Shown here in pieces: positions 17,860-40,606 of a stretch of DNA of 64,000 nucleotides. Source of the DNA: Squalus acanthias (taxonomy: Eukaryota); contig CM059449.1 of the NCBI GenBank assembly GCA_030390025.1, positions 15,624,001 through 15,688,000 on the forward strand. The letters run 5' to 3'. Position 1 is the stretch's first letter, and each line of letters begins with the position of its first letter. A model generated the notes under the pieces. That model searched no databases. It was given only the letters and a program-made list of their open reading frames with translations, and was not told the DNA's origin. The position numbers were made by a program, and so were the translations under genes.

Positions 17860-18201
17860 CAGTTACTGTTGGAAAAATCACCGTAATTCAGAGCCCGCAA
17901 TCACTCACCAAAACCGCGGGACAGACAGCGGGCCTGCTCTGTAGATATGAGGGTCCCAAAGGAATCGGCAGCTGCACGTGGCACCGAGGCACCAAACAGG
18001 GAAATGAAGTTTCCAACAATACAGCGGAATACAGAGGCAGGGTGTTCGGGGCAAGTGAAGAGGAATTCAGCCAGAGGGGAGACGCGTCCATTAGAATAAT
18101 CCAGCTGAAACCGGAAGATACCGGGCTCTATTTTTGCAAACTGGAGCTCTTGGGATTCGCTGCAGCAGACGGACCCGGGACAGCAGTGACCGTGGAACGG
18201 G
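17860..18201 (+). CDS. NCR3-like: Gene A exon 2, NKp30-like VJ-type Ig V domain (AVTVGKITVIQSP...LLC...IGSCTW...EYRGRV...DTGLYFC...GPGTAVTVER)
   Basis: 342-nt phase 1-1 exon (tacag| ... |gtaagt). Canonical V-set Cys, Trp, DxxxYxC and a J-like GxGT motif. Resembles recalled NKp30 motifs (IGSVTW, EV.N.T.E.RGR, YVC.VEVLG...G.GT). Confidence 0.9.
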
Positions 18202-18387
18202 GTAAGTTTGTATTTTTTTTGAAAAGTAGACGGGTTCTTTTAAGTGCGAGAGGTGTGCCCTGCCAGGTTACCACCCAGGATGGTAACGGCGAACTTCCAG
18301 CCCGGAGGACGTCTTAGCCCCCTTGCGTTACTCGTTGCCTTGGACCAGAAAGCGATAGGGAGATTTTTTAGACCTGTTATTCCATAG

Positions 18388-18539
18388 GTGCCGAAACGGA
18401 ATTTAAGATAATGAGCAACGAAGAGCCTACAAGCTTCTTCAGCGACGTCCGGATTCTATGGTGTGTCCGTGCTGCAGTGATAGCTTTACTGGTCGTTTTT
18501 GGAATCATCGTCGCTATCTATCTGCTTCCGTCAGAAGAG
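18388..18539 (+). CDS. NCR3-like: Gene A exon 3, stalk plus TM containing Arg (ILWCVRAAVIALLVVFGIIVAIYLL)
   Basis: Acceptor tccatag| is in frame (phase 1) with the V exon; donor GAG|gtactg is phase 0. The Arg sits near the TM N-terminus as in NKp30 (LLLRAG). Confidence 0.8.
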
Positions 18540-18643
18540 GTACTGGTAGCGAATGTCAATATATGTATTATTTACTGTTTGGGACGCATGGAAAAGTATT
18601 TTATAATTGTTTAGCACAACGATTACACTCTGGTTCCATAGAA

Positions 18644-19025
18644 TGAGGGAACGATAGCAGAGTGGTAATGTTACTGGACTGGTAATCCAGAAACCTGGAC
18701 TAATAATCCGAGGACAAGCGTTTAAATCCCACCACGGCAGCTGGGAAATTTAAATTCAATTAAATAAATCTGGGATAAAAAGCGAGCATCAGTAATGGTG
18801 AGCATGTAACTACCGGATTGTCGTCAAAACCCATCTGGTTCACTAATGTCCTTTAGGGAAGGAAATCTGCCATCCTTACCTGGTCTGGCCGATATGTGAC
18901 TCCAGACCCACAGCAATGTGGTTGACTCTTAACTGCCCTCTGAAATGGACTGGCAAGCCACTCAAGGGCAATTAGGGATGGGCAATAAATGCTGGCCTTG
19001 TCCACATCCCGTGAATGAATAAAGA
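18644..19025 (+). mobile_element. HE1-type tRNA-derived SINE
   Basis: tRNA-like head (gcagagtggtaatg... tttaaatcccacc), core acccatctggttcactaatgtcctttagggaaggaaatctgcc, and a HER1-type 3' tail. Other copies: one per array unit, 33050-33330(-), 54700-54835(-). Confidence 0.8.
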
Positions 19026-19349
19026 AAACGTTTATCGTTTAATTAATGTGAGATGCAGGAAGATAGCGGTGTGAGAAGGATTTCTGCACTTGGGTTCCAG
19101 CCAAGCAGAACCGCGCAACAATGTCTGGATCCTTGAAGTCTGGGTCTGTAACAGTCTTAGCTCAAGACTGAGCTGCGAGCACGTTTGATAAAGGCTCGCT
19201 CCCTCTCTCCGAACGTTAAGTGTTTCTAAAGCCGGGAGAGGAGAACACCTGCTCTCAAGACACATAAATTGAGATGATATGGGTTTGCAAAGTGTTCAGG
19301 ATGTCCAAGGAAACACAGGGGAAGATAATCCTTCCAAAGTGTCCGTTAC

Positions 19350-19795
19350 ATAGGATTACATTACATAGGATATACGGCACAGAAACAAGCCATTCGGCCC
19401 AGCTAGTCAATGCCAGTATTTATGCTCCACTCGAGCCTCCTCTAGTCTTTCCCCATCTAAATCGATCAGCATAACCCTCTATTCCCTTCTCCCTCATATG
19501 CTTGCCTAGCCTCCCCTTAAATGCATCTATACTATTCGCCTCAACCATTCCCTGTGATAGCGAGTTCCACATTCTCACCACTCTTTGGGTAAAGAAGTTT
19601 CTTCTGAATTCCCTATTGGATTTCTTGGTGACTATCTTATATTGATGGCCTCTAGTTATGCTCTTCCCTACAAGTGGAAACATTCTCTCTGCACCCACTC
19701 TTTCAAAACCTTTAATAATTTTAAAGACCTCTGTTAGGTCAGCCTTCAGACTTTTTGTTTTCAGGAGAAAAGAGACCCAGCCTGTTCATCCTTTC
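19350..19795 (-). mobile_element. CR1 LINE 3' fragment
   Basis: ORF 19420-19698 (TRGH...RRNFFTQRVV..WNSL). Confidence 0.85.
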
Positions 19796-20549
19796 CTTAT
19801 ATACATACTTTATTTGTTCTATGTTATTTTACTGAAAACAGCTCACTGTAAAGCAGTTTCAGTTTGAGCTTTCTCCGTACAACTTCACTGCTTTCCCAAG
19901 GTTTCTCTTGCTCTCCTCTGGGGTGAGAAGAACCTCCGCGGAAAATCCAGGCGATTCCACTTACAAGGGAAAAATTGTAGGATTGTATCGTGCGGTAACT
20001 AACTTATTGTGTGTCTGCAAACTGAGTCTACTTTGAGCTCCATAGCACATTTCCAAATAATTAATTTGGCCATTCTTAAAGAAGGTCGTAAATGCAATAC
20101 TGAGGGATATTTATATTCATCAGTTCTTGCAAAGCCCAGTTAAGCTCTACCATAATTAATTAGTCCTGAACACATGACAGCAGGACTAATACACTTTCCG
20201 AGTCTCATAAGGGTGATATTAACAATTTTGAAGTACCGCAATTTAAAAAAAAATGTAGCAGAGCTGGATTGACACCGCTTGACAGTTTCTGCCGGGTCGC
20301 CTGGGGTTTCCGCCGATCTTCTGCCGAAGTTACGGCGGGAGATACCCCAGCGAAAATTCGCCCCTAGTGTTTGTAACGTTCAGCTCAGAGTTATTTAATT
20401 AAACTGCTATGGACGCGATAGATAACACAGTCCTGTTTCCCAAATGGGAATTCTATGAAGATCCTGCAATAGTCAGTTATATAATTGAAGGACAGTGACA
20501 AATTAGCAGAAATAAATCATCCAAAGGTTTATAAACTAGTCTGAACTAC

Positions 20550-21016
20550 AAAAAAGTCTTGCTTTTCTATAGCGCATTTCACGACCACCGGACATCCCAA
20601 AGCGCTTTGCAGCCAATGAAGAACTTATGAAGTGGAGTCACTGTTGTAATGTAAGAAACGCAGCTGCCAATTTCTGCACAGCAAGCTCCCACAAACAGCA
20701 ATGTGATAATAATCAGATAATCTGTTTTTGTTATGTTGGTTGAGGGATAAATATTGGCCAGGGCACCGGGGATAACTCCCTTGCTCTTCTTCGAGATAGT
20801 GCTATGGGATCTTTTACAGCCAACTGAGAGGGCAGACGGGGCCTCGGTTTAATGTCTCATCCGAAAGACGGCACCTCCGACAGTGCAGCACCCCCTCAGT
20901 ACGACACTGGAATGTCAGCCTAGATTTTTGTGCTCAAGTCTCTGGAGTGGGATTTTAACCCACAATCTTCTGACTCAGAGGCGACAGTCCTACCCACTGA
21001 GCTACGGCTGACGCCG
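20550..21016 (-). mobile_element. Deu-domain SINE (SacSINE1-like) with L2-type tail
   Basis: tRNA-like head (gtagctcagtgggtag), core gtgctgcactgtcggaggtgccgtctttcggatgagac. Further copies at 35870-36275 and 43815-44262, both (-). Confidence 0.7.
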
Positions 21017-21620
21017 ATATGATAGCAATTGATGTTTGATTTTTACTCTGCAGCCCAAGATTGTCTTGGACATTCGAGGATATATTTTTCTTAAATCGTG
21101 TTGTACAGAAATACATCATCAAAGGTCTCGAACAAATGTTTAAAATAAGGTCTGTAGCGTAGCACAAACATTATGTACAGCCCATAATTTATGTAATCTT
21201 TAGCCCGTTTCTGTCGGAAACTCTACCAATTCACTGTTGTATTAATTACGGTACAGTTAAGGTACTGTTCCCCATGTAAGGGTATGATGCTTCATTAAGC
21301 GCTGGTCTTTTTCCCATTGCCCTATTTATCTTCACACTTTCTATTTTCCTTGTGATGAGATTTGTCACTGCGTTTCATTACTTTGTTTTCCAATACTTGT
21401 TTTTCACTGAGCATCGTGGACTGCTGTAAATGTTGCTGTTCAGCATTATACCGGAAACCAGAACTGGTGTTTTTGCCCCTGCAAAATATCTATATGCGGG
21501 AAATAAGTGTACGGTGCCCCTGCCCCATCGTCACCAACACCCAAATCCATCAGTTGACAAGTAATCTACAAATGGTAATAACTTGGTCTGAAATTCATTT
21601 TTTTGTTACTTTTGTGACAG

Positions 21621-21668
21621 AACGAACCTACTTTTTATAAAAAGCTAAAACAAGGAGAACATTTTCAG
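21621..21668 (+). CDS. NCR3-like: Gene A cytoplasmic exon NEPTFYKKLKQGEHFQ (first half of the ITAM-like motif)
   Basis: ttttgtgacag| acceptor, CAG|gtaaat donor, 48 nt. Only the phase-0 frame is open, which matches the TM exon. Confidence 0.6.
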
Positions 21669-21730
21669 GTAAATATGTAAAGAGCTGGTATCCTCGTCTC
21701 CGACAGCCTAATGTCTTGCTTTTTATCAAG

Positions 21731-21770
21731 TATCCACGCATAAACCCATCAATAAATGCAATGTTTTCGG
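21731..21770 (+). CDS. NCR3-like: Gene A cytoplasmic exon YPRINPSINAMFS (second half of the ITAM-like motif)
   Basis: ctttttatcaag| acceptor, G|gtaaag donor, phase 0 to 1. The preceding intron is only 62 nt. Confidence 0.45.
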
Positions 21771-22075
21771 GTAAAGCAGTGGCACCTATATGTTATGTTT
21801 CAATCATTCTAATCTGGCACAATTTGCATAAAATAAATAATGGTTTCCGTCATTTTATTCCAATTTGGGGTCATAATAGTGGCAGTAAAGGTATCTGGTA
21901 CTATTGCTGAAAGGCTAAACCATGGTAATACTCGAACTGGAAATCTGAATAAGGTGGTTACAAACGCACCAGATTTTTACACTTTGATTGTGATTTACAA
22001 TAAATGTGATTGCCATTGAAACTATTGAAATTAACTTTTCAAATTTTATTTTGATGAATATGTTTCCTCATCTAG

Positions 22076-22180
22076 GAGGCAATGGAAGTACTGAACATTC
22101 AACCCATGTGGGACCTTTTTCTCCTCCCCCAAATATTGCATCTAACGCCGACTTCAGACTGCCCACTTCCGATTATGATG
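22076..22180 (+). CDS. NCR3-like: Gene A cytoplasmic exon GGNGSTEHSTHVGPFSPPPNIASNADFRLPTSDYD
   Basis: tttcctcatctag| acceptor, G|gtgatt donor, 105 nt, phase 1-1. FSPPP-NIA resembles gene C tail modules. Confidence 0.5.
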
Positions 22181-23364
22181 GTGATTTTCCATTTCCTAAC
22201 GGCCTTCTCACAGTCCATCTTTCGACTCAATGCATTCAGGAGAAATAAGCTTCCCCATAGGCTGCACGCAAACTTTTATTTTATTCCTTCTGGGGAAGGT
22301 GGGCGTCGCTAGTTCATCCCTAGTTGCACTTGAGAAGGAGGAGGTGGGCCTCCTCCTTGAGTCACTGCAGTCCGTGGGGTGAAGGTACTCCCAAAATGCT
22401 GTTAGGTAGAGAGTTCCTGGATTTTTGACCAAGTGACAATGAAGGAAAGACGATATATGATGATACAATTCGGGATGGTGTGTGACTTGGAGGGGAAACT
22501 TGGAGTTGATGGTGTACCCATGCACCTCGGCTGTTCCTACGAACTACATTTCCATCGGAGTTTAATTGTTTGATGTCGGACATTTTCAGATTGGCCTGAG
22601 TCTGTGTTTACTTAGCAATAATAGTATTGGATGGCTTTAAGGAGATGCTTTCCTACCTTAGTAGCAGAATAATATACCGTGTCTTACATGGCATAACGGT
22701 TGTGTCCTTGTAAAATAAACACCATCCAACTCACAGTGATCAGTACGATGAACAATTAGCCTCCCCATCTTGGTCCGTAGGAAAAACAATGTTAAGCTAT
22801 GTTATGTTCCAGTACGTGCTGCCTTGTTCTACTCTATGTAGCGCGCTTGAGTAAGATTAAATTGTACATAACTACTTATTTCTAAGCCCAATTAGGAGTT
22901 AAACTCATTTCGTCAAGTAAAATAAAACGAATCAAGCATTTTGCTCATTAACTGGTGGTCCAAAAAACACTTTATCACCCATTACAAGATAAAACATTGG
23001 CAACAGTTCGTATAGAAGTTTCAGGAGTGCTGTTAAGCCGAAAATTCTGGAGTGAAATTAAAATAAACATGAAGAGGAAGAGACACTGGTTATTGATCAG
23101 AAGAATTTGGGATTGTGTTTGGAATAGCACATTTTCCTCTGCTCACTTACTTCAAGTCTCTCGGAATTTAGAACAGGTTTTAAAATCTTCAATGTTTCCT
23201 TCATAAAGTGAAGAGCTTGACTTGCCAAAAAATCCTATTCCTGATACTAAAGTGATTTCCATTCTCCACCAATCTGGAACTATTGCTTACTGAATAACCG
23301 TTCGGAGATTTCCCAAATTATGTTTTACTAATTCGGCATGTGCCTTCACTTCTTTTGACTTCAG

Positions 23365-23378
23365 CAGGAAGAAGATGA
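23365..23378 (+). CDS. NCR3-like: Gene A putative last coding exon (AGRR*)
   Basis: Strong acceptor cttcttttgacttcag|. Phase-1 reading gives GCA GGA AGA AGA TGA; phase 0 would read QEEDDD...DSL* to 23430. Confidence 0.4.
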
Positions 23379-23724
23379 TGATGGCACAGTGAAGCTGGGC
23401 GGATGGATGGAAAGCACAGACTCACTCTGATACAAAGACTCACTGTGATACGAAGACTGCCGTGTTAAATTGCCTTCCATCCAGACCACGTCCCTGCAAG
23501 TCATTATTGGCAATACACAAGTCTCAGTGCGGCAACTTGATCAAGTTGTCAGTTCCGTATTTGCGAAACATTCAAAGACACTCACATTATAGACCTTTGG
23601 CATAAAGGCTCTTTAATATTTTCATGTTGGTGAGCTGCTGCCATAAATAGCTGCAGTGTGGACCACTGGTTATTCTGCTGTTTAATTACTTCTGTCCGTC
23701 TTAGATTTGAAAATGTGTTCTTTA

Positions 23725-24090
23725 AATAGACATTCTTGTTTTCAAATCCCTCCATGGTCTCGCCCCTCCCTATCTCTGTAATCTCCTCCAGCCCCACAGC
23801 CCCCCAAGATACCTGCGCTCCTCTAATTCTGCCCTCTTTAGGATCCCTGATTATAATCGCTCAACAATTGGTGGCCGTGCCTTCAGCTGCCAAGGCCCTC
23901 AGCTCTGGAATTCCCTCCCTAAACCTCTCCGCCTCGCTAACTCTCTCTGTCCTCCTTAAAGACGCTGCTTAAAACCTACTACTCCTGTACTAATATCTCC
24001 TTATGTGGTTCGGAGTCAAATTGTGTTTAATAATCGCTCCTGTGAAGCGCCTTGGGTCGTTTTGCTACATTAAAGGCGCTGTTTCAATAC
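23725..24090 (+). mobile_element. L2-clade LINE 3' remnant
   Basis: cctctggaattccctccctaaacctctccgcctc... and 3' end gtgaagcgccttgggtcg...aaaggcgct followed by (tgt)n. Confidence 0.6.
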
Positions 24091-24549
24091 ACTTTGTTGT
24101 TGTTGTTGTTGTTATGTTTCAGTTTCTGAAGTAAATATGTTTGCCTTTGATAACTTCGAAAAATTTCCTTGCATTCCCAAGGATATATTTGGGTCTACGC
24201 AGTAAATTACCTTAGTTGTAGAATTTCACTTCACTGTCAAAACAATCATGTTAAATATGAATGAAAACATTGCAAACAGCTTTGCACCGTGCGGTCGGGA
24301 TCCTCACAACACAAAGGTGTACACCATGGCACATACTCCCCGCATCGTATGCCATATTTTCCAAAAGCATCTTATCTAGGCGTCTCTGAAAATAAGTAAG
24401 CTCAAAGACACAGGAGTCAGATCTCTGCAATAGCTCAGGAGCCTTATAGCGTTGTTATATTCCTTACTTACCGATCCAGCGTTCGATGGAGAACACTTTA
24501 AGGTTAATTACTCATCGGTTTCAATTAAATAGTGTTATTTTAAGCCATT

Positions 24550-25221
24550 GGCCCTGAATTTCCAATCCGAAGCTTCCTGCGAGCGGATGCCTCCGATTGG
24601 AAAAAATCTACGAACCTTACTGCTGGTTCCATAGATCCCGAGGCTTCCGATCCTGGGCCTCTCCTGTTGGAAATGCGCAGAGCCTCAGGTAGCCGAGGGG
24701 CGCATGCGGTTTGCGCCAGCCCCCTGGGATCACGTGGGCCAGGCGAACCAATCATACGCACAGAACTGTCAAAAGTATGAATGGAAATCACATCTAAAAA
24801 CACACTAAAGCATTAAATAATTTTTTTTAATTACATAATTTAAAATTAATTAAAATTCAATTGAACTAAAAATAAACTTACTTTTTTGAAGAGTATTTTT
24901 AATTTATAAATGAGTTATCAAAGTTAATTTTTCTATTTTTCAACACTCATAAGCTGGTAAAAGCAGGCCTTACGCATGCTTTTACCAGACGTAAGAATTC
25001 TCTGGCCTTTCAGCGGGCGGAAGTTGTGCAAAAAGCGCAACTCTCCACCCGCAGAGGCACTTTTCCCGGGCAGGCGGATGATCTGTCAAGAGAATTCTTG
25101 ACAGATCGCAAGTGCCGGTTTTCAGCGCATGCGGTTCGCATGCCTGAAACCGGAACTTGCGCGGGCCCTACGGGCGCATACGCTCCTCGTACGCACCAGT
25201 GGAGGTGGCAAAATACGGACC
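24550..25221. mobile_element. MITE related to 8654-9397
   Basis: Shares gggatcacgtg, ccaat, the AT-rich core and gccggttttcagcgcatgcg; degenerate TIRs ggccctgaattt / aaaatacggacc. Confidence 0.65.
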
Positions 25222-26344
25222 ATAGTTTCTTGTCTCCAAACTATTCATTATACAGTTAGGGGTTGAATTTCTATGAGGGTTTACATGATCATCCACCGTG
25301 ACTTCGAAGGAAACACTGGAGAAAAGGGTATAAACATATTCAAGGTAGCTAACGCCTGTTCAATTTGGCCGCCCAGGACGCCGGAAAACCCGTGAGGCCA
25401 ATGTGGCTCTGGACATATTTCAGCTTTCGTTGGGGCGCAGGGCATAGTCCTGTGAAACTGCTCATGGTTGCCCCCATTTTCCGCGCAGAAAACGAGCGTA
25501 ATGAGGACCAATTTCCACCCTTTCCCCAGATGCCAGCTCTGAGATACTTATTGCCAAACTCTCGGTGCCAATAAATAAAAGTCGGGGCAAAAACTGCATA
25601 AAATCCGGACAAAGGGCTGATGAAAGCCAAAGAGAGTGTGGGCGCTAGCGCAAAACGGGCGAGAATGAAACAGCCATAAATGGAATAGGAAATTGGGCAG
25701 GGTGTAAAATGTGCTTTCCATCCACTAGAGGCCATTTTGCCCAATCGTCCACGAACAATTTCACGCCCATGGAATGTTAGAAGTCGTCCCACGATAAATC
25801 CAGTCCTCTTTGCCCATATAAGAACAGTGCCACATCCGTATCCTGAGCTCTCTTCTAATGGATAATCACCATAACATCCGGGAAACAACGCTAAGTGGGT
25901 CGGTTCCAATCCCACTGCATTTCCGATCGGTACCACCCGGCAGAAAACCGTAAGTGAAGAAAAGAGAATCGGCCCCATCTAGTCCGAAACCCACCAGTAT
26001 GTTTTGCTTTACAAAATGAAATTTTATCATGCAATTTGGAGATATTTGTTGATCATTAACAATATATAGAACTGGAAACCTTTAACGAGAGATGGAGTGG
26101 GTAAGTACCACAACTTCACTCCGTTGCACGTAATTTTTTTATTCGTTCCTGGGATATGGGCATCGCTGGCAAGGCCACCATTTGTTGCCCATCTCAAGTT
26201 GCCCTCGAGAAGGTGATGGTGAGCCGCCTTCTTGAATACAGCTGATACACTTGCTAGGCCATTTCAGAGGGCAGCTGAGAGTCAAACACATTGCTGAGCG
26301 TCTGCAGTCACATGTAGGCCAGACCTGGTAAGGATGACAGATTT

Positions 26345-29100
26345 CATAAGAACATAAGAAATAGGAGCAGGAGTAGGCCATTTGGCCCTTCAAGCCTGCT
26401 CCGCCATTCAATAAGATCATGGCTGATCTTCTACTCATCTCCACTTTCCTGAACTATCCCCATATCCCTTGATACAGTTAATATTCACGAATCTATCGAT
26501 CTCTCCCCATCCCAGGAACCAGTCTGGTGAACCTTTGTTGTACTCCCTCTATGACAAGTATATCCTTCTTGCTCTCTGTTTTCTGTCCATTAACAAATCC
26601 TCAATCCATGCTAGTATATTACCCCCAATCCCATGAGCCCTAATTTTGTTTAATATCCTCTTGTGTGGCACCTTATCAAATGCCTTCTGAAAATCCAAAT
26701 ACACCACATCCACTGGTCCCCCCTTATCTATTCTGCTAGAAACAACCTCAAAAATCTCTAATAGATTTGTCAAACACGATTTCCCTTTCATAAATCTGTG
26801 TTGACTCTGCCCAATCCTGTTATTATTTTCTAAGTGCCCTGTTACTCACGTCCTTAATAATAGATTCTTGCATTTCCCTACTGCTGATGTCAGGCTCACT
26901 GGTCTGTAGTTCCCCGTTTTCTCTCTCCCTCCTTTCTTAAATAGTGGGGCTACATTTACTACCTTCCAATCCATGGGAACCATTCTAGAATCTATGGAAT
27001 TTTGGAAAATGACACCCAATGCATCCACTCTCTCTATAGCCAACTCTTTCAAAACCCTAGAATGTAGGCCATCAGGGTCCAGAGGATATATTGGCTTTTA
27101 GTCCCATTAATTTCTCCAGTACTACTTTTTTACTAATACTAATATCTTTCAGTTCCTCATTCTCGCTAGACCCTTGGTTGTCCACTATTTCCGCGAGATT
27201 TTTTGCGTCTTCTTCCATGAAGACAGACACAAAGTATTTGTTTAATTTCTCAGCAATTTCCTTATTCCCCATTATAATTTCTCCTGTCTCAGCCTGTAAG
27301 GCACCCACATTTACTTTCGCTAATCCTTTTCTTTTTACATACTTATAGATGCTTTTACAGTCTGTTTTATGTCTCTCCCTAGTTTACTCTCATATTCTAT
27401 TTTCCCTTTCTTTTCAATTTCTTGGTCCTCCTTTGCTGAATTCTAAATCCTCCCAATCTTCAGCCTTACGACTCTTTTTGGCATCATTATAAGCCTCTTC
27501 CTTTGATCTAATACTATCTTTAACTTCTCTTGTTAGCCACGGTTGGACCAATCTTCCTGTGAGGGTTTTCTGCCTGAAAGGAATGTATATTTGTCGGCAA
27601 TTATGTATTAATTCTTTAAATGCTAGCCATTGCTCGTCCACTGTCATTCGTTTTAATGTAGTTTCCTGATCTACCTTCGCCAACTCGCCCCTCATACCTA
27701 CATTGTTTGCTTTGTTTAGATTTAAGACCCTAGTTTCGGATTTAACTAAGTCACTTTCATACTCAATATAAAATTCTATTATATTATGGTCACTCTTCCC
27801 TAAAGGCCCCTTTACTTATTAATTAACCCTTTCTCGTTGCACAATACTCGATCTAAAATAGCCTGTTCCCTAGTTGGTTCCTCAACATACTGGTCTTGAA
27901 AACTATCTTGCATACATTCCTTGAATGCGTCCTCCACACTGTTACTGAAAATTTGGTTTGCCCAGTCTATATGTAGATCAAAGTCCCCCATGATTATTGT
28001 ATTACCCTTGTTACATGTCCTCTAATTTCCTGATTGATACTCTGCCCTACATTACAACTACTGTTTAGATATAAAAGTCCATGTTAAGTCCGGAAGGCTG
28101 TAAAGTGCCTAATCGGAAGATGAGCCATATCTCTGTTATGGCTATTAAATCATCTTCCGATTCGGCACTTTACAGCCTTCCCGACTCAATATCGAGCTCA
28201 ACAATTTCAGATCATAACCTCGGCTCCTACCATATATATATAATAATATAATATCCACCCTTTTGGTTTGTGTCTTTTCCCTTTTTTCTCTCTCCCCACG
28301 GCAGCTGTCTCTCATTCTGCCAGCATTTCACACTTCACACTTTTGAGCCACCTTTTGTTTCTTAACCTGTCCTATTACCATCTCGTCTTCCCTTGAGCAT
28401 CTCTTAATGTCTCTACATACCTTTTGTTCTTTTATTCCTCCCCCAGCTTCCCCCTTGCTTTTTTATCTGTTTCATTTCCTGCTTTTTTCTCATTTCTGAC
28501 GAAGGGTTTGGACCTGAAACGTTAACTCTGTTTCTCTCTCCACGGATGTTGCCTGGCCTGCTGAGTTTTTCCAGCGTTTTCTGTTGTTGCTTCTAAAAGT
28601 TATGTATCTTGGAATATTTAGTACCCAACCTTGACCAATTTGAAACCACATCTCTGTTATGGCTATTAGATCAAACCTGTTAATTTCTATCTGCGCTATC
28701 AATTCATCTATTTTGTTGCGAATGCTTCGCACATTCAGATATAGTGCCTTTAGCTTTGACTGATTTCTCTTTTTCGCTGATGTCACCTTAGTCACTGATG
28801 CCTTATTACCTTCTTTACTCTCTCTGTTCCTTCCTGACCCACTCAGATGATGTTTTACCCAAAACTCTTCTCTACACCAGAGACTTTATATTTCTCTCAA
28901 TGCTTTTAAATTTACACTTTCCTGAATCCTCCCCCCCCTCTTCATTAGTTTAAAGCCCTGTCGACTGCCCTAGTTATTGGGTTCGCCGCGACACTGGTCC
29001 CAGCCCGGTTTAAGTGGAGCCCGTCCCAACGGAACAGTTCCCTCTTTCCCCAGTACTGGTGCCAGTGCCGCATGAACCAAAACCCCTTCCTCCCACACCA
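26345..29100 (-). mobile_element. Decayed CR1 LINE (ORF1 end, endonuclease, RT), internally deleted and interrupted by a Penelope insertion at ~28070-28590
   Basis: ORFs 26549-26791 (SCLTNL, DFQKAFDKVPH), 26846-27052, 28490-28795 (LYLNVRSIRNK) and 28945-29154 (DGLHLN, esterase-like ORF1); (cttatgtt)n tail at 26345. Confidence 0.85.
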
Positions 29101-29661: not shown

Positions 29662-29924
29662 TCATGGTTTAACCACCACGTGAGCAGCATTCAGTGTGCT
29701 GACTGTCTTCTCGCTTTTGACAACGCATTGGAAATGACCGGAATTAATGGAATCTTCCTTTGGACAAAGATCGAGATATATTGAGCTATCCGGGCTATAA
29801 ATTCCCTGTTTGGAGCCCCGCTCTGTGCCAGATGAACAAGTGTCACTATAATTGGTGTTGGAAACCCCGGACGAGGAATGAGCATTATGCTCAATCTGAC
29901 ACTCCTGGTGGAACCTGATGACCT
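29662..29924 (-). CDS. NCR3-like: Gene B putative last exon, cytoplasmic tail with Tyr motifs (TNYSDT, GIYSPD, ITIM-like SIYLDL)
   Basis: Acceptor cacttttcactag|, phase-1 open frame of 87 codons to TGA, non-repetitive sequence. AATAAA on (-) at 29463-29468 and 29363-29368. Confidence 0.6.
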
Positions 29925-30120
29925 CTAGTGAAAAGTGCACCAATGCTCACGTCGGGTGAGGGCCGGTCCCTATTATTTTGGGAAGCCCCAATTTAATGGA
30001 AAAATGTAAATATATCATGTGTGGTGGTCATCATTTCAAAGGTATATCAACTTCAGGATGACATCGTGTATATTAAATAAAATGCAACAGATTGTTTGAA
30101 TATTATTAATATGTTACTTT

Positions 30121-32960
30121 TAAAAAATTCGTTTATGGGATGAGGGCGTCGCTGGCAAGGTCAGCCTTTATTGCCCATCCCTAATTGCCCTTCAGAAGCT
30201 GGTGGTGAGGCACCTTCTTGAACCGCTGCAGTCCTTGTGGTGAAGGTACTCCCTCAGTGCTGTTAGGGAGTTCCAGGATTTTGACCCAGCGACGATGAAG
30301 GATCGGCGATATACTTCTAAGTCAGGATGGTGTGTGACTTGGAGGGTAACTTGGAGTTGATGGTGTTCTCATGCGTCTGCTGCCCTTGGATCTCTAGATG
30401 GAAGAGTTTGCGCGTTTGGGAGGTGCGGCCGAAGAAGCCTTGGCAAGTTGGTGCAGTGCATCTTGTAGATGGTACACACTGCAGCCACCGTACGCCGGTG
30501 GTGGAGGGAGTGAACCTTTAAGGTGGTGGATGGGGTGCCAATCAAGTGGGCTGCTTTGTCCTGGATAGTGTCGAGCTCCTTGTGTGTTGTTGGAGCTGCA
30601 CTCATCCAGGCAAGTGGAGAGTATTCCATCACACTCCTGACTTGTGCCTTGTAGATGGTGGAAAGGCTTTGGGGAGTCAGGAGGTCAGACACTCGCCGCA
30701 GAATACCTGGACTTTGACCTGCTCTTGTTGCCACAGTATTTATCTGGCTGATCCAGTTAAGTTTCTGGTCAATGGTGACCGCCAGGATGTTGATAGTGGG
30801 AGATTCGGCGATGGTAATGCCACTGAATGTCAAGGGCGGTGGTTAGACTCTCAGTTGTTGGAGATAGTCATTGCCTGGCAATTGTGTGGCGTGAATGTTA
30901 CCTGCCACTTATCATCCCAAGCCTGAACGTCGTCCAGGTCTTGTTGCATGCGGGCATGGACTGCTTCATTTTCTGAGAAGTTGTGAATGGCACAGAACAC
31001 TGTGCTATCATTAGCGAACATCCCCATTTCTGACCTTATGTTGGAGGGAAGGTCATAAATGAAGCAGCTGAAGCTGGTTGGGCCCAGGACACTGCCCTGA
31101 GGGACTCATGCAGCGATGTTCTGGGGCTGAGATGATTGACCTTCAACCACCACAACCATTTTCGTTTGTGCTAGGTATGACTCCAGCCAGTGGAGCATTT
31201 TCTCACGATTCCGATTGACTTCAATTTTACTTGGGCTCCTTGATGCCACACTCGGTCAAATGCTGCCTTGATGTCAAGGGCAGTCACTCTCACCTCAGCT
31301 CTGGAATTCAGCTCCTGTGTCCATGTTTGGAGCAAGGGCGTAGTGAGGTCAGGAGCCGAGTGATCTTGATGGGACCCAAACTGAGCATCACTGAGCAGGT
31401 TATTGGTGAGTAAGTGCCACTTGATAGCACTGTCAATGACACCTTCCATCACTTTGCTGATGATTGAGAGCAGACTGATGGGGCGGTAATTGGCCGGGTT
31501 TGATTTGTCCTGCTTCTTGTGGACAGGACATTCCTGGGCAATTTTCCACTTTGTCGGATAAGTGCCAGTGTTGTAGCTGCACCGGAACAGCTTAGCTAGA
31601 GGTGAGGCTAGTTCTGGAGCAGATGTCTTCAGCACGAAATCCGGGATGTTGTCGGGGAAAATAGCCTTTGCTGTATCCAGTGCGCTCAGCCGTTTCTTTA
31701 TGTCATGTGGAGAGAATCGAATTGGCTGAAGACTGGCTTCTGTGATGATAGGGACCTCAGGAGGAGGCTGATATGAATCATCCACTCGGCACTTCTGGCT
31801 GAAGATGATTGCAAACGCTTCAGCCTTGACTTTGCGCTCACGTGCTGGTTCCACCATTATTAAGGATGGGGATATTCATGGAACCTCCTCCTCCCGTTAG
31901 TTGTTTAATGGTCCACCACCATTCACGACTGGATGTGGCAGGACTGCAGAGCTTTGATCTGATCCGTTGATTGTGGGATCACTTAGCGCGGTCTATAGCA
32001 TGCTGCTACCGCTTTTTAGCATGCATGTAGTCCTGTGTTGCAGCTTCCCCAGGTTGACACCTCATTTTTAGGTATGCATAGAGCTGCTCCTGGCATGCTC
32101 TTCTACATTCCTTATTGAACCAGGGCTGGTCCCCTGGCTTGATGGTAATGGTAGAGTGAGGGATATGCCGGGCCATGAGGTTACAGATTGTGGTGGAATA
32201 CAATTCTGCTGCTGCTGATGGCCCACAGTGCATCATGGATGCCCAGCTTTGAGCTGCTGGATCTGTTCTGAATCTATCCCATTTAGCACCGTGGTAGTGC
32301 CACGCAACACGATGGAGGATGTCCGTGAAGACGGGACTTCGTCTCCACAATGACTGTGCGGTGGTCACTGCTACCAATATTGTCATGGACAGATGCATCT
32401 GCGACAGATAGATTGGTGAGGACGAGGTCAAGTAGTTTTTTCCCTTGTGTTGGTTCTCTCACCACCTGTCACAGGCCCAGATTAGAAGCTATTTCAATCA
32501 GGACGCGGCCAGCTCAGTCAGTAGTGGTGCTACCGAGCCACTCTTGGTGATGGACATAGAGGTCCCCCACCAAGACTACATTGTGCCCTTGCTACCCTCT
32601 GTGTTTCTTCCAATTGGTGTTCAACATGGAGGAGTACTGATTCATCAGATGATGGAGGACGGTAGGTGGTAATCAGTAGGGGGTTTCCTTACCCATGCTT
32701 GACCTGAAGCCATGACGCTTCATGGGGTCCGGTGTCAATATTGAGGACTGCCAGGGCCACTCCTTCCCGACTGTATACCACTGTGCCGCCACCCCTGGTG
32801 GGTCTGTCCTGCCGATCGGAGGATTTTGGGAAATTGGCTGAAAGGTATGATTCTGTAAGTATGAATATGTCAGGCTGTTGCTTGGCTAGTCTGTGGGACA
32901 GCTCTCCCAATTTTGGCACAAGTCCCCAGATGTTGGTGAGGTGGACTTTGCAGGGTCGAC
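30121..32960 (-). mobile_element. HER1-type LINE, 5'-truncated and frameshifted ORF2 (endonuclease + RT), in a gene B intron
   Basis: ORFs 32689-32919 (ILTESYL), 32283-32465 (LDLVLTN, SDH), 31171-31857 (DIKAAFDRVWH) and 30369-30833; 3' tail shared with the HE1 SINE. Confidence 0.9.
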
Positions 32961-35900
32961 TGGGCTGGGTGTGCCATTGCCGGTGCCGAGCTCGATGCCG
33001 GGTGGCCCATCTAGTCTCTTTCTTATTATATTTCGTAGCAGTTAGTTACAACTGAGTGACTTGCTCGGCAATTTTAGAGGGCAGTTAAGAGTCAGCCACA
33101 TGTAGGTCGGACCAGGCTGATTTCCTTCCCTGAATTAGTGAACCAGATGTTTTTTTAACGACAATCCGATAGTTTCATGCTCACCATTACTGATACCAGC
33201 TTTTTAATCCAGATTTATTTAATTAACTGAATTTAAATTCCACAGCTGCCGTGGTGGGATTGAAACTCACGTCTCTGGATCATTAGTCCAGGCCTCTGGA
33301 TTACTAGTCGAGTGACAATACCACTACGCTTATCGGCACAAGAACATGGATCGGGAGATCTGACTGCAACCTAATTTTATTCTTCTCACATTTTACATGC
33401 ATTCACTTAGTTCCATTTCTCGCTGTAGAAAGTCGTTTTCCTACCTCTCCTTATATAGATGATGACAAATCTTCCAGCCCATACATATTTTAATGGATTT
33501 GTTCCATCCAGTGTAAATTCCGCTCTATATTGTTATAGAAAAATATGGTGTGCTGAATTTGGGCATACTTCTGCTACGGGCCGTGGCGATGCTTAAGTGT
33601 GCCGAGCTTTGAGACGTCCTGCCAAGTAATAATTTCTCGGGGAGGTGGTTCTGCCGATCGCCTGCCATGACTTCGCTGGAAGTTCGGCAGAACCCCGCTT
33701 TATCTATTACGCGCTTCTTCTGATTTCCGCCGATCTTCCTCTGACGTTACCAGAAGAGAGCGGAAGAACCCCGCAGAAGTCGTTTCGCCCGCCCCTCTTG
33801 AGTTTAACAAAAAACATTAATTTTAATAAAAGTTACAACGGAAAATCAACAGAACAACCTGACATGATTCAACTGAGAAGAACTTTTATTCCGAAAATGT
33901 CAAATACTTTACAGGATTATGATGAAATGTAAGGAGTTATGTGATGAAACTAGGCTGAGTGAACAGTAACGAGTATGAACGCTCAACATGTTGGTTTTCA
34001 TTTTAACAGCGGCATGAACCAGTTTATCTTCCAGGATAGAACGCCCCTAAAAATAGGGGACTAATATATTTCATACAAATGTGATAAATGTTCACAACCA
34101 ACACTAAAGAGTCTGATGTTAAAGCATTGGAGATTCCAAGCTCTTGTTACTGAATTATGTGTGGATAAACCTCACTCACTAAGTTAGAGGACAAAACATT
34201 CCCCTGGAAATTCCCATGGAGGGTTCTCTGATCATCCGCCGTTGAAGATCCAACAGGACCCCCGAGCTTCCGCCCAAGTTACGGCGGGAGATCGGGACAT
34301 CTCTGCGGAAATTCCACCACTTGTCCATCGCGGGTGGGGGCAGGGGCGTCTCATCATTGGGGTGAAATGTATCGGCTCCGCTTACTTCACCGAAGCTACA
34401 GCACCCCTTCTCGCTTCACACGGCGCTCAGTTTGATTGCTGTCCTGAACATTCAGCGTGGCATATTGGAATTTTTCATCTCCCTCTCTCTATTGAGATGA
34501 AAGTGTTTTAGTGTTGAATAAAATATTGTAAACTGATTATAGCGTAGGGCCTCAAACCCAGCGCACCAGATTTGTGCAGTTTCAATGGAATATAATTCAA
34601 CCCAGTAAACATTCTACATATAATTAGAATATGACTCCACCTATCAAATATTGTTTCGTTAAATAGGATAGATCGCGCCGTCCTATATATTCCTGTCCTT
34701 TTGAATTTATTTCAGCGTGTCAACGATTGCACGATTTAAGTAACAAGCAAGGTAAGCAGTCGATCAAATTAACACATCATTCTAATGTTAAAATCCATGC
34801 ATTTGGAACAATTCACACTTAATGAATTCAGGAACAGTGGTTCAGTCAGCATCTGGGAAAGTCAGATTAATATTTGGGAATAACTGTTCAAGAGCACTTT
34901 CCGTTCGAAGGCAAAGTGCCAGCCCACCGGTTACCCTGTGTTTTCTCTTCCAGGTGCTGACTGACCTGCTTTGCATATCCAGCATTTTCTGTTACGGCTT
35001 CAGATTTCCTCCTTATCTCGACTTATCAAAGTAGATGTATTTTTGCATGTGTAAGACTGGGTGCCCCTATTTTGGGGTCTCTTTTAATGTTCCTGTGTGT
35101 ATCTCGTGCTTTTTTTATTCGTTCATGGGATGTTGGCGGCGCTGGCAAGGCCGGCATTTATTGCCCATCCCTAGTTGCCCTTGAGAACGTGATGGTGAGC
35201 CGCCTTCTTGAACCGCTGCAGTCAACGTACTCCCACATTGTTTTTCGTAGTGGCTTTTTGCAACTGCGTGGCCATTTTAGAGGACAGTTAAGAGTACACA
35301 GCGCGTGCTCACCCGTGGAGACCCGAATTTCTGGCCCGTTTGCTACCGTTCCCTATATATGTTTGCGCATGCACCTGCTTATTTGTCTGTGGCTATATGT
35401 ATTTGCGAGTGTCTGCGAGATTGTGTCTTTCTGTGTCTGCAGGTGTGTGAATTCTGGAACTGTTAGGTTTCATTTCATGCCTTTCCTGGTTGGCTTTCTG
35501 TTGAATTATAAATAATATTTTAGTCCCCGTCTCTATTCAATTTCGATTTTCAACTTGCCGCGCCTGTGCGTAAAACTAGCGTTTGGGTTGCGCCGCACCT
35601 GTGCTTTACGCCTGTGTGGCAAATTTAGAATCTACCACAAATGTACAAGAAAAATAGTTGAGGCCGTCCAACCTCGTTTCATCTTTAGACTTTTACATCC
35701 AACTGAGAGAACTTTTTAAAGGATAATCTACCTGGAAAACTAAACAAGAGGTCAGTAGGTTTAAAAATAACAAAAACTGCCCAAGTAATTTTGCTACAAA
35801 CCCGATTTGATCTTCTGCACTCAGAGCTGTCATAATTCCTCTCTATAAAGCTCAGAAAAAAGAAAAAAGAAAGACTTGCATTTATTTAGCACCTTTCACC

Positions 35901-36679
35901 ACCTCAGGACGTCCCAAATCGCTTCACAGGCAATCAAGTACTTTTTGAAGTGTCGTCGCCGTTGTAATGTAGGAAACGCGGCAGCCAATTTGAGCACTGC
36001 AAGCTCCCACAAACAGCAATCAGACAATGGCCAAATAATCTGTTTCAGTGATGTTGAATGAGGGATAAACATTGGCCGGTACACCGGGAGAACTCCCCTG
36101 CTCTTCTTCAAAATGTGCCAAGTGATCTTTTACGTCCAGTTGAGAGAGCAGACGGAGCCTCGGTCTACTGTCTCATCTAAAAGACGGCACCTCTGACAGT
36201 GCAGCGCTCCTTCATTACTGCACTGGGAGTGTCAGTCTAGATTTTTGTGCTCAAGTCTCTGGAGTGGGACTTGAAAGGAACAACCTTCAATGACCATGCC
36301 TAATTTAATTTATTGAACAGTGTATACAATACAATACAACATATTGTGCTATAGATATAGCGCTGTAATGCTCTGTGATATAATGCTATAGGATAGAACA
36401 CAACATGGTAGAAAACAGGAGAACGCAATGAAATAAAGTATACAGTAGGAGGTACCGTATTGCACAACAATGAAACGATGCAATTAGTATGGTCCAACGT
36501 ATAATACCCTACCACGCATATATAAAACAGCCTAAGGTTTTTCTGTGCGATATAAACGGTGTTCATATCAGAGTCCTAGGCCCACTATTTAAACTAATGG
36601 GAAAAGCAATTTGATGTGAGCGTGCCAAGCACTCGTACGAGAATAGGGTGACGTCTAGGCTAATCTACTAGAATATATG

Positions 36680-37423
36680 CGGCCAAAAATTCGGCCGTTC
36701 CCGGGTGACTACTCAGTGCGGACTCACCCGTATTGTTTCCTGCATGAACTGCGCATGCACGGGAAACCGGAACTTCCGGTATGGTGAAGGGGGCGGTTCC
36801 TAGGTGATCCGCGTGTGCGCTGGAGGCTGCGCGCGTGCAGCACACTCAGATTTCTTTTCAGGTTTCTGCGCGAGGGGAAGTATTGAAGATTCTACGCTGA
36901 TAAAAAGGAGGCGTAAGACCCCTTTTGAACAAGTTAAGTGGTTAATTAAGTATAATTAAAAAAAAATTTCAACAGGTTTATCTTTTTTAGATACTTTAAA
37001 GAAAGGTAAGTTTATTTTTATAACTTTTAAAAAGTATTTTATTTTTTCAAAAATTTAAATTTTTGTTTAAAGTGGTTAATTTATTTAACTATAGTTATTT
37101 TATAAATGTGATCGTTTTTTAAAATTTATTTTAAGTTTAGCTGTGCTTTTGGGGCTGATATCAATTCACAGATTTGACAGGTCCTGTCAAATCTATGAAT
37201 GATAGATGGTCTGCTGCCATCGGCTCTACATGGCCCACGTGATCCCAGGGGTCGCATCACATTAACTACGCCCCTGCAACACGCAAGCACTGCGGGCCGA
37301 CACTTGGAGCAGTCCCAGGAGCTGAAGTTCCCGTGGGCCCAAAACACAACTGCAGGCGCGGTGGGTAAGAGCGCGCGCGATCCTTACCCACGCGGCAAGC
37401 CAGCCAGGCGAATTTTTAGGCCG
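36680..37423. mobile_element. MITE related to 8654-9397, opposite orientation
   Basis: TIRs cggccaaaaattcg / cgaatttttaggccg; cacgtgatccc and AT-rich core shared. Confidence 0.7.
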
Positions 37424-38079
37424 ATATATAATACAGCATAACATTGAAACGCACTTTTAAACATCATGTAATAATTCATCACGAAAAAGATCAGGGTGTG
37501 GTAAGAAAATCTTTTACATTATATTCGGCATAAACCTTAACACTTCAAATTGACTTTGTGGCCAAGACGTCGAAAATGTGTCACTCAATAGCCGTTCTGG
37601 AAGCAAGAGTTATTGAATCATACAGTCATACAGCACAGAAGGAGATCATTCGGCCCAATCTGCATGAGCCGGCTCTCTGAAAGGGCTACTAATTAGTCCG
37701 ACTCCCGCCTGCTCTTTCCCCATAGCCCTGAAATATTTCCCTTTTTAAATATTTATCCAATTCCCTTTTGAAAGTTATTATTGACTCTGCTTCCACCACC
37801 CTTTCAGGCAGCGTATCCCAGATCACAACAACTCACTGAGTAAATAAAAATTCTCCTCATCTCCCCTTGGCTTTTTTTTTGCCAGTATCTTAAATCTGTG
37901 TCCTCTGGATACCGACAGAATAATCAGACAAAACAATACTGAAATCTTGGTCAACCGATTATTCCTGGTAGATAAGAAAATTAACCACATTATCAATTAA
38001 AATCAAATTAAATCGAAGGAGTAAGCGTTCGGAGTTTATTAAAAGTAACAGGTTGTTCACGTTTCTTTCTGTCATTGAC

Positions 38080-38114
38080 CTGTTTCATGGATCTCTGAGT
38101 AGAGCGGATCTGGA
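38080..38114 (-). CDS. NCR3-like: Gene B 35-nt micro-exon (S)PDPLYSEIHET
   Basis: tcttttgcttcag| acceptor, G|gtcaat donor, phase 2 to 1, YxxI motif. Confidence 0.7.
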
Positions 38115-38224
38115 CTGAAGCAAAAGAAGACATCAGAAAATTTAGGCATCCAAAATAATAAAATACATTAAAGAACAAGAAAGTGGCTTTCTTTAAAAAA
38201 AAGTAGATCAATGTAAACAGTCAC

Positions 38225-38246
38225 CTGGTGGGTTGCTGAAGAGCGA
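38225..38246 (-). CDS. NCR3-like: Gene B 22-nt micro-exon VALQQPT
   Basis: Long pyrimidine tract ending ctcctcacag|, AG|gtgact donor, phase 1 to 2. Confidence 0.7.
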
Positions 38247-38557
38247 CTGTGAGGAGAGAAAGACAAAGACAGAAAAATTAAAGAGCTGAAGTTATTGATT
38301 ATATCTGCAAGAAGCAACTGAAATAATTGGTATCGATTGAATTGAATCACATTTTGGGGGCAATTTTAAACAAACCCGGGGAGAAACGGACGGGATCGAG
38401 GGCAACGTTTTGAAGTCAAATGAGAGCAATATTGGGCGGGTCTAAACCCGGCGTTCCACCCGATCCCCTGCGTTGCCTGCCCGATGAGTTAGGATAAATT
38501 TACCAGAGAATTTGCCAACCACATGGAATTCAGTAGAGATACAATTAGTGCTGTTAC

Positions 38558-38689
38558 CTCTCTTCTGATGCCGGCTGATAACAACTATGATTATGATGAT
38601 GATGATGATCAGGAGAGGAACCACTATCGTTAATAAGACGCGTGGTGGGATCATTGGTGCGGGCTCGCCGTGGCAGCTCTCTCCACCAC
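38558..38689 (-). CDS. NCR3-like: Gene B stalk plus uncharged TM (VLLTIVVPLLIIIIIIIIVVI-SRHQKR)
   Basis: tttacacacag| acceptor, G|gtaaca donor, 132 nt phase 1-1; basic stop-transfer residues follow the TM. Confidence 0.85.
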
Positions 38690-40255
38690 CTGTGTGTAAA
38701 TGTAAAGTTTCATTGTGAGACAGAGCAGTCAAGAGCAGGGCAATGGTCACATTGAGATTGAGGATCAGCAAATGTGACACTGATTCCCAATCCCCTTTGA
38801 CATGCGGGGCTATTTCACACTGGCATAAATCAAACTAGGCCACCGATCAAAACGCAAAATGTCACCAGTGGACAACTGGATTTATTCCCACCCTGGAAGT
38901 AACACTGGGGGAATTTTAATGTAGGGAGGCTTAATGGCTTGGTGCCACATTCCTTTCTTTTAAATAGCGGGGCGTGGGGGTGGTGTTCGTGTGAGTTCTG
39001 TTAACATCGGAACATAGTAACAGGAGGAGGCCATTCAGCCCCTTCGGCCTGTTTCACCATTCAATGAGATCATGGCTGATCTGCGACCTAACTCCATTTA
39101 ACCGCCTTTTGCCCCATATCTCTTAATACATTTGGTTAACAAAACTCTATCAATATCCGATTAAAAATTAAAAATTGATCTAGCATCAGTTGTCGTTTGC
39201 GGAAGAGAGTTCCAAACTTTTACCACCCTTTGTGTGTTTAGAAGTGTTTCCTAATTTCAATCCTGAAAAGCCTGGCTCTAATTTCTACACCATGCCCCCT
39301 AGTCCTAAACTCCCCAATCAGAGGAAATTATTTCTCTCTATCTACCATCTCTGTACCCTTTAATATCTCGAGAGTGTCGCTCCTCCAGCCCAGTTTTCTT
39401 GAATCCACTAGACCCTGGAGATCCAATGGGTCCTGAGCGCGGACGAGAAAATCTTCCCCTCGTATTTAAGGGATGCTTAAGACAAAACGAACATCTGGAA
39501 ATTAGACGGGCCGAAACTGGGTGATCAACGTGGTTCTTCTGCGGACCCATCTTTGCATTTTGTTGGCGCGCAATGTTGTAATTTGTATTTACACACACAA
39601 CTATATCCGTTACTGCCTCTATTTACAAGATGACAGTGACATCTAACTTATCACACATGTGCTTTTCCGGTTTATTCCCAATATTGGCATGCGGTGATTT
39701 CAAGGCTCACATTTTGCTCCAATTACGGGGCTCCAGTCTTCGCCTCGCACACTGTAACTGGGTTGACTTCTTATCTATAGTCATACCTAAAATTGGATGC
39801 AGCAACTGAATGTAATTAATAAATCCCCATTTATTTATTTTAAAAGATCATTCTCGGGATACGGGCGACGCTGGCGAGGCGGGCATGTTATTGTCCATCT
39901 CTGGTTGACCCCTTGAGAAGGTGCTGGTGGGCCAGTCTTCTTCTTGAACCGCTGCAGTCCGGTGTGGTGAAGGTTCTCCCACAGTGCTGTTTTGGAGGCA
40001 GTTCCAGGATTTTGGAATGAAAAGCGATACAAGTCCAAGTCAGGCTGGTGTGTGACTTGGCGGGGGACTTGGAGGTGATGGCGTTCCCATGCGCCTGCTG
40101 CCCTTGACCTTCTAGGTGGTGGAGTTCGCGGGTTTGGGAGTTCCAATTGATCTGATGGAGAATTTACCTATACGGCCAATATTACCCCCTAGTAAAATCC
40201 CATATGATTGCGTGCAATTTCATTGGTAAGAATATCTCCACCAATCCAAACTTAC

Positions 40256-40606
40256 TGTGTTGACGCCGTTCCACGGTCACTCTCGTCCCGGGTCCCTCTG
40301 CTGCAGCGATTCCCACGAGCTGCACTTTGCAGACATAGAACCCGGTATCTTCCGGTTTCAGCTGGATTATTCTAATGGACGCGTCTCCCCTCTGTGTGAA
40401 ATCCTCTTCACTTGCCCCGAACACCCTGCCTCTGTATTCCGCTGTATTGTTGGAAACTTCATTTCCCTGTTTGGTGCCTCGGTGCCACGTGTAGCTGCCG
40501 ATTGCTGTGGGACCCTCATATCTACAGAGCAGGCCCGCTGTCTGTCCCGCGGTTTTCGTGAGTGATTGCGGGCTCTGAATTACGGTGATGTTTCCAACAG
40601 TAACTG
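40256..40606 (-). CDS. NCR3-like: Gene B exon 2, NKp30-like VJ-type Ig V domain
   Basis: Within ORF 40182-40649; cttgcag| ... A|gtaagt, 351 nt phase 1-1. AIGSYTW, EYRGRV, DTGFYVC and GPGTRVTVE motifs. Confidence 0.92.

What the first reader, a model, noticed from the sequence alone, without database searches (positions are those of the whole stretch)
17860..40606. V exons of A and B are homogenised (~94% nt) while leaders, introns, TM and tails are not; differences are mostly amino-acid-changing and clustered
Seen (manual alignment): 19 nt differences in 341 nt. Sixteen codons differ and 14 of them change the residue. Three changes fall in the BC-loop/C-strand (PKGIGSC vs PTAIGSY) and eight in the F-G region (LYFCKLELLGFAAADGPGTA vs FYVCKVQLVGIAAAEGPGTR), with 29 identical codons following the BC-loop changes. 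Similarity fades within ~20 nt of the exon edges. Inference: exon-limited gene conversion between inverted paralogues, with divergence at the likely ligand-binding face. A rough dN/dS is only about 1, so positive selection is not shown.
Basis: partly seen in the sequence, partly recalled or inferred. Interest (0 to 1): 0.7.

Follow-up and report, generated by a model that had tools for sequence, protein, structure and literature searches.

The report
Shark on/off NKp30 receptors share exon
Two neighbouring shark immune-receptor genes of the NKp30 family, one predicted to switch cells on and one predicted to switch them off, have unrelated-looking bodies but a 94% identical ligand-binding exon, most likely because that exon is copied between them again and again, a known trick of paired receptors that I did not find described for NKp30.

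Summary
Observation confirmed: 19 differences in 341 nt, 16 codons, 14 amino-acid changes; nothing else but mobile repeats aligns between the two genes. The pair belongs to a shark NCR3 (NKp30) cluster with 27 V exons at 91-100% identity: 5 class A genes (transmembrane Arg, short tail; predicted activating) and 22 V exons in about 19 class B genes (neutral transmembrane, in-frame ITIM-pair tail; predicted inhibitory). Silent sites match (5.7% fourfold-site difference A-B, 74% to class C), although A's transmembrane exon is homologous to class C, not B. In bamboo shark a gene with the A leader carries a V that groups with carpet-shark B genes, not with this A (p-AU 5e-5). The two window genes also share a 49-nt tract that their own sister copies lack. 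So exon-limited, recurrent homogenisation is supported; it is family-wide, not a two-gene affair. Positive selection is not shown (pN/pS 0.69, 0.43-1.14); enrichment at NKp30 contact positions is weak (pair p=0.03, family p=0.10). Window gene B has lost its second ITIM. Function, ligand and expression of A are untested. A new case of known paired-receptor concerted evolution.

The parts
16081..16132 (+). Gene A leader exon (17 codons, phase 1 donor)
   Evidence: ATG to G|GTAAG read from sequence; 10 of 17 residues identical to the leader of Chiloscyllium P0011
17860..18201 (+). Gene A V exon (VJ-type Ig V domain, NKp30-like)
17910..17958 (+). Tract identical to gene B (exon nt 51-99) holding alleles 73G and 83T that the sister copies of both genes lack; likely recent conversion tract
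18388..18539 (+). Gene A stalk/TM exon with TM arginine; 4-nt duplication near its end relative to copies A2/A3 and to organisms D/E
   Evidence: homologous to class C TM exon, 0 of 200 shuffles
19951..19980 (+). Candidate last coding exon of A (short tail, no tyrosine motif in either frame used by A1 or A2/A3)
   Evidence: acceptor conserved in A1, A2, A3; splice inferred, no RNA
42892..42934 (-). Gene B leader exon (14 codons, phase 1)
   Evidence: leader-V splice seen in an RNA-type contig of related organism C
40256..40606 (-). Gene B V exon (9 nt longer than A at the 3' end)
40508..40556 (-). B side of the shared 49-nt tract
38558..38689 (-). Gene B stalk/TM exon, no charged residue in the hydrophobic run
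   Evidence: homologous to TM of Heterodontus P0001 and nurse shark P0002
38225..38246 (-). Gene B cytoplasmic exon 1 (22 nt, phase 1 to 2)
38080..38114 (-). Gene B cytoplasmic exon 2 (35 nt, phase 2 to 1); donor weaker than in paralogues
35802..35842 (-). Gene B cytoplasmic exon 3 (41 nt, phase 1 to 0), puts the last exon in frame
   Evidence: found in 8 of 9 B genes tested
34382..34488 (-). Gene B terminal exon with two ITIM-type motifs in paralogues; here a 1-nt deletion gives a stop (34398-34396) at the second tyrosine

Best explanation
A and B are old paralogues of the shark NKp30 (NCR3) family with opposite predicted signalling, A likely activating through a transmembrane arginine and B likely inhibitory through ITIMs, whose ligand-binding V exon is most likely kept alike by repeated gene conversion while leaders, introns, membrane segments and tails stay distinct. 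Shown: the exon-limited identity including silent sites; the two gene bodies; kinship of A's TM exon to class C and of its V exon to class B; clustering of V domains by shark lineage and of leaders by class. Inferred: conversion as the mechanism (short patch exchange, since the flanks are not alignable); B-type as the original donor; adaptor coupling of A and phosphatase recruitment by B; selection to keep both receptors on the same changing ligand.
For: 27 V exons, 91-100% identical, on one scaffold in two body types with no cross-class hit outside V. Mean V difference A-B 6.2%, B-B 6.4%, A1-A2 5.0%; A2-B18 only 8 of 341, against 7.4-8.3% in A1-A2 introns and 8.1% in B-B intron 2. Fourfold sites differ 5.7% A-B but 23 of 31 A-C. 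A TM exon aligns to class C TM exon (0 of 200 nt shuffles, 0 of 1000 aa shuffles) but a V clade A+C is rejected, p-AU 2e-5. Chiloscyllium P0011 (A-type leader) has a V 72% identical to carpet-shark B-type V and 57-64% to this genome's A; carpet-shark clade 98/96, this genome's A+B clade 97/96; A-leader clade rejected p-AU 5e-5. In organism E the derived change I9F stands on both an A-flanked and a B-flanked contig and in 0 of 27 copies here. The only two changes private to window A versus its sisters both match window B, one found in only these 2 of 27 copies; null 0.0004 for this donor, 0.005-0.008 for any B donor. The fully resolved flank tree is rejected for V, p-AU 0.003. B tail is in frame to the ITIM exon.
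Against: Monophyly of A-class V exons within this genome is not rejected (p-AU 0.47; 0.30), nor are the well-supported B flank clades (0.13). No GENECONV-like fragment is globally significant (best p=0.30) and PHI is borderline (p 0.003-0.13 over 12 settings). The Chiloscyllium A assignment rests on a 17-residue leader because that gene model ends after V. The organism E evidence is one site on graph-simplified contigs. No A-type transcript was seen; window A carries a frameshift at the end of its TM exon and window B has lost one ITIM, so this particular pair may be decaying. Diversifying selection is not shown (pN/pS 0.69, interval includes 1).
Confidence: 0.72

Rival explanations
1. Conversion is real but functionally idle: the V exon is simply the only stretch long and alike enough to recombine in a dense tandem cluster, and class A (or this A1 lineage) is not a working activating partner.
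For: B genes also show crossovers at or near the V exon (B15/B14, B04/B10, B13/B17); 6 of 27 V exons are broken (stop, frameshift or lost Cys); A1 frameshift at TM end; no selection signal.
Against: All 5 A genes keep open V and TM exons with the Arg; the A leader is kept in a carpet shark; class C, equally close in the cluster, is not homogenised.
Confidence: 0.15
2. One-off exon shuffling: A received a B-type V exon once, shortly before the recent expansion, and copies then diverged by birth and death without further exchange.
For: V tree is a star of similar depth to the flank divergence; A monophyly not rejected; no significant GENECONV-like tracts.
Against: An A-leader gene in Chiloscyllium has a carpet-shark-type V, which needs at least two transfers; shared I9F in organism E; shared 73G/83T tract.
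Confidence: 0.08
3. Assembly or polishing artefact: reads of B overwrote the A exon, or haplotypes were stitched in tandem.
For: Many 96-99% identical blocks of 4-24 kb in the cluster could be haplotype copies, so copy counts are upper bounds.
Against: A and B differ at 19 sites; contigs of other organisms (D, E) join A-type intron to this V type; only two N gaps in 864 kb examined.
Confidence: 0.03
4. Strong purifying selection on the V domain, or a simple recent whole-gene duplication, explains the identity.
For: V domains are usually the most conserved exon.
Against: Silent sites are as alike as replacement sites; the same V lineage is only 57-73% identical in other sharks; introns do not align.
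Confidence: 0.02

Closest known systems
Paired opposing receptors with ligand-binding-domain homogenisation ('merohomogenization'): KLRC/NKG2, KLRI, KLRB, Ly49, PIR (Fossum et al. 2011, PMC3210942; abstract and first part of Discussion read); Siglec-11/16, CD300A/C, CEACAM1/3 (search listing only)
   Same: Opposite signalling bodies conserved across species, ligand-binding exon clustering by species, boundaries at the exon edges.
   Different: Here the family is NKp30/NCR3, in a cartilaginous fish, with about 19 inhibitory-type against 5 activating-type genes; shared ligand and opposite function are shown for several mammalian pairs but not here.
Human NKp30 (NCR3)
   Same: Best sequence and fold match; single VJ-type V domain; TM arginine in class A (PMC6514059, passages read, describes the Arg and CD3zeta/FcRgamma coupling).
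   Different: The review passages describe one activating gene without inherent signalling motif; here a multigene cluster with ITIM-bearing members.
Shark NCR3 multigene family (Kinlein et al. 2021, Immunogenetics 73:333; only the reference line seen; content recalled: eight divergent nurse-shark subtypes, MHC-linked)
   Same: Nurse-shark NCR3 QTT61898.1 is the B-type orthologue (66-73% V identity, related leader and TM).
   Different: I could not read the paper, so I cannot say whether it reports activating and inhibitory subtypes or shared V exons.

Membership tests
NCR3/NKp30 family | Single-exon, non-rearranging VJ-type V domain with GxGT motif | tested here: met
   One exon holds C27, W40, C92 and G104-x-G106-T107; Pfam V-set
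NCR3/NKp30 family | NKp30 as closest solved sequence and fold | tested here: met
   Top 4 of 445 phmmer hits and top 4 Foldseek hits, TM 0.79-0.83
NCR3/NKp30 family | Groups with named shark NCR3 proteins | tested here: met
   Clade with P0001, P0002, P0005, P0009, P0011 at 97/94
NCR3/NKp30 family | Transmembrane arginine for ITAM-adaptor coupling | tested here: met
   Present in 5 of 5 class A genes; absent inside the hydrophobic run of the 17 class B TM exons read
NCR3/NKp30 family | MHC linkage | tested here: inconclusive
   16 of 50 MHC_I Pfam matches lie on the same scaffold but 13-23 Mb away and are the weaker, alpha2-only ones; the best matches are on other contigs
NCR3/NKp30 family | Binds B7-H6; expressed on NK or T cells | not testable with these tools
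   No ligand or cell-level data
Paired opposing receptors with homogenised ligand-binding domain | Activating-type and inhibitory-type bodies | tested here: met
   TM Arg and short tail versus neutral TM and in-frame ITIM pair; by motif only
Paired opposing receptors with homogenised ligand-binding domain | Both bodies older than the species split | tested here: met
   A introns and TM exon and B flanks in organisms D/E; A leader and B body in Chiloscyllium (A by leader only)
Paired opposing receptors with homogenised ligand-binding domain | Ligand-binding domains cluster by lineage, not by class | tested here: met
   p-AU 5e-5 against an A-leader clade
Paired opposing receptors with homogenised ligand-binding domain | Homogenisation limited to the ligand-binding exon | tested here: met
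Paired opposing receptors with homogenised ligand-binding domain | Shared ligand and opposite cellular outcome | not testable with these tools
   Needs binding and signalling assays

The most novel reading that the evidence does not exclude
In sharks NKp30 is a true paired-receptor system maintained across orders: an ancient activating gene is continually re-templated from an expanding ITIM-bearing family so that it tracks the same (self or pathogen-mimicked) ligand. That would place ligand-domain homogenisation of paired receptors at the base of jawed vertebrates and make the lone activating mammalian NKp30 the remnant of an on/off family.
Probability: 0.4. Interest if true: 0.7.

Novelty: new member of a known kind. 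Interest (0 to 1): 0.52.

Why it matters
NCR3 is one of the few NK receptor genes traceable from sharks to humans. Showing that its shark members form activating/inhibitory sets whose binding exon evolves in concert links the oldest adaptive-immune lineage to a pattern so far worked out mainly in mammals, gives named sequences for a direct test of shared ligand and opposite signalling, and warns that V-domain trees alone misassign orthology in this family.

Tried and rejected
GENECONV-like permutation: no globally significant fragment. PHI: borderline. AU test of A monophyly inside the genome: not rejected. Family-wide enrichment of variation at contact-equivalent codons p=0.10 and densest window (codons 65-74) p=0.07; variable codons contact versus others p=0.41. 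Word-index protein searches for short A-type or C-type proteins: none. Sequencing runs: no RNA holder listed; read laying gave only contigs, which collapse copies, so whole-exon identity of A and B in organisms D/E could not be read. No dead former V exon within about 8 kb of A1 or A2. Protein atlas gave no result. Kinlein 2021 and Flajnik 2012 are not held. Paper searches for NCR3 with shark, cartilaginous fish, ITIM, gene conversion or paralog terms listed no paper on V-exon homogenisation in NCR3; the library lacks most subscription papers.
Full report
Observation. The V exons at 17860-18201(+) and 40606-40256(-) differ at 19 of 341 nt; 16 of 113 codons differ, 14 by residue, at 5, 33, 34, 38, 68, 70, 89, 91, 94, 95, 97, 99, 103, 108. 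Outside the exon, whole-gene blastn finds only repeats. Leaders keep weak homology (0 of 200 shuffles), TM exons are borderline (3 of 200) and introns are at or near chance.

What the genes are. Both domains are Pfam V-set; human NKp30 is the best sequence match and the best fold match of a model with mean pLDDT 84. Closest database proteins are shark: Heterodontus P0001 and nurse-shark NCR3 P0002, 67-68%. The own genome holds 27 exons at 91-100% identity between 14.97-15.76 Mb and 17.03-17.13 Mb of scaffold C26 and about 40 more distant matches on the same scaffold (69 matches in all, 150 of 169 candidates scored). I fetched 864 kb around them including the window. The 27 exons fall into two body types: five class A genes (confirmed genome-wide by the TM exon) and 22 V exons in about 19 class B genes, three of which have two tandem V exons. 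Many 96-99% identical blocks mean that counts are upper bounds.

Opposite bodies. Class A has a TM segment with an arginine in all five copies and a short tail without tyrosine motif; an arginine of this kind couples human NKp30 to CD3zeta/FcRgamma (PMC6514059, passages). Class B has a neutral TM (17 read), three small cytoplasmic exons and a last exon with two ITIM-type motifs; phases run 1-1-2-1-0, the third small exon being found in 8 of 9 genes tested, and the tail matches Heterodontus and Scyliorhinus proteins. An earlier AI note on another genome reported an out-of-frame ITIM tail, so I checked this: here it is in frame. Window B itself has a 1-nt deletion that puts a stop on the second tyrosine; window A and its two sisters have a 4-nt duplication at the TM exon end that A2/A3 and organisms D/E lack. 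Activation and inhibition are inferred from motifs.

Why conversion. (i) Silent sites: fourfold sites differ 5.7% between A and B but 23 of 31 between A and class C, so selection on protein cannot explain it. (ii) Exon genealogies disagree: A's TM exon is homologous to that of class C, whose V is 48% identical, and not clearly to B's, while a V clade A+C is rejected (p-AU 2e-5); B-type bodies in three other sharks carry this V lineage, so B is the likelier original donor (inference). (iii) Second lineage: Chiloscyllium P0011 has an A-type leader (10 of 17 identical; score 55 against at most 25 of A to B-type leaders) but its V groups with carpet-shark B-type V (98/96), this genome's A and B group together (97/96), and an A-leader clade is rejected (p-AU 5e-5). 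The gene model ends after V, so its TM is unseen. (iv) In organism E the change I9F, derived relative to P0001 and P0002, stands on both the A-flanked and the B-flanked contig and in none of the 27 copies here; one site, contigs only. (v) Window A differs from both sisters at only two sites, exon nt 73 and 83; both match window B, whose sisters have the other allele, and 73G occurs in only these two of 27; both lie in an identical tract, nt 51-99; null 0.0004 for this donor, 0.005-0.008 for any B (the pattern was noticed before the test). (vi) The resolved flank tree is rejected for V (p-AU 0.003).

Against. A monophyly inside the genome is not rejected (0.47; 0.30); PHI p ranges 0.003-0.13 over 12 settings and no GENECONV-like tract is globally significant. 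Mean A-B V distance (6.2%) equals B-B (6.4%), so the window pair is not specially close and exchange is occasional, not continuous. Six of 27 V exons are broken.

Selection and ligand face. Using the 11 NKp30 contact residues listed in Table II of Li et al. 2011 (PMC3135353, passages), mapped by the alignment, the pair differs at 4 of 11 contact codons and 10 of 102 others (p=0.03), and at 9 of 27 within two residues of a contact (p=0.0007). Across 12 intact lineages (one per duplicate group, broken exons left out) pN is 0.091 at contact codons and 0.046 elsewhere, codon 66 has five residues, but the permutation p is 0.10 and overall pN/pS is 0.69 (0.43-1.14). The Val53 contact is a main-chain one, and L94V likely points inward. 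About half of the pair's differences are private to the A1 lineage and half to window B. Positive selection is not shown.

Comparison with what is known. The pattern is the 'merohomogenization' described for KLRC, KLRI, KLRB, Ly49 and PIR (PMC3210942, abstract and first part of Discussion). It works like those pairs; membership is met for all sequence-level features, untested for shared ligand and function. The shark NCR3 family is known (Kinlein et al. 2021, reference line only; content recalled). My searches listed no report of V-exon homogenisation in NCR3, but the key paper and its supplements could not be read. RNA evidence is limited to a spliced B-type contig in related organism C.

Verdict. 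Real, well supported as exon-limited recurrent homogenisation in a predicted activating/inhibitory NKp30 family; a new member of a known kind; interest 0.52.

Noticed in passing
window 1-13900: About seven tandem copies of a 1.97-kb unit at 90-93% identity, built of repeat fragments; similar blocks recur beside other A1-type copies.
   Followed up: no
window 49079-49417 (+): A third, divergent NCR3-like V exon (about 30% identical to A/B), one of about a dozen copies interleaved with B genes; no TM exon found within 9 kb by a hydrophobicity scan.
   Followed up: partly
G000:C26 15034417-15035335, 15191939-15192857, 15527203-15528120: Three class B genes with two tandem V exons about 566 bp apart.
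   Followed up: partly
G000:C26 14950454-14952864 and 15409024-15414156: Class C genes: divergent V (45-48%) with an Arg-bearing TM exon homologous to class A; the second has two V exons.
   Followed up: partly
G000:C26 14770399-14777739 and 14886524-14892441: Two runs of four tandem NCR3-like V exons, probably multi-domain receptors.
   Followed up: no
G000:C26 15173504-15176800 and 15508619-15512001: Orphan class B cytoplasmic and ITIM exons with no V or TM exon upstream.
   Followed up: no
B gene pairs B15(window)/B14, B04/B10, B13/B17: Divergence steps up at or near the V exon (about 1-2% upstream, 4-7% downstream), suggesting crossovers there.
   Followed up: partly
window 17874-17876 and 17973-17975: The A1 lineage has lost an N-glycosylation sequon (N5K) and gained an unpaired cysteine (Y38C) at the position of NKp30 Val53.
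   Followed up: no
G000:C26 30.7-38.4 Mb: Sixteen MHC class I-like alpha2 exons on the same scaffold.
   Followed up: no
window 17240-17280: Long G-rich run in intron 1 of A.
   Followed up: no
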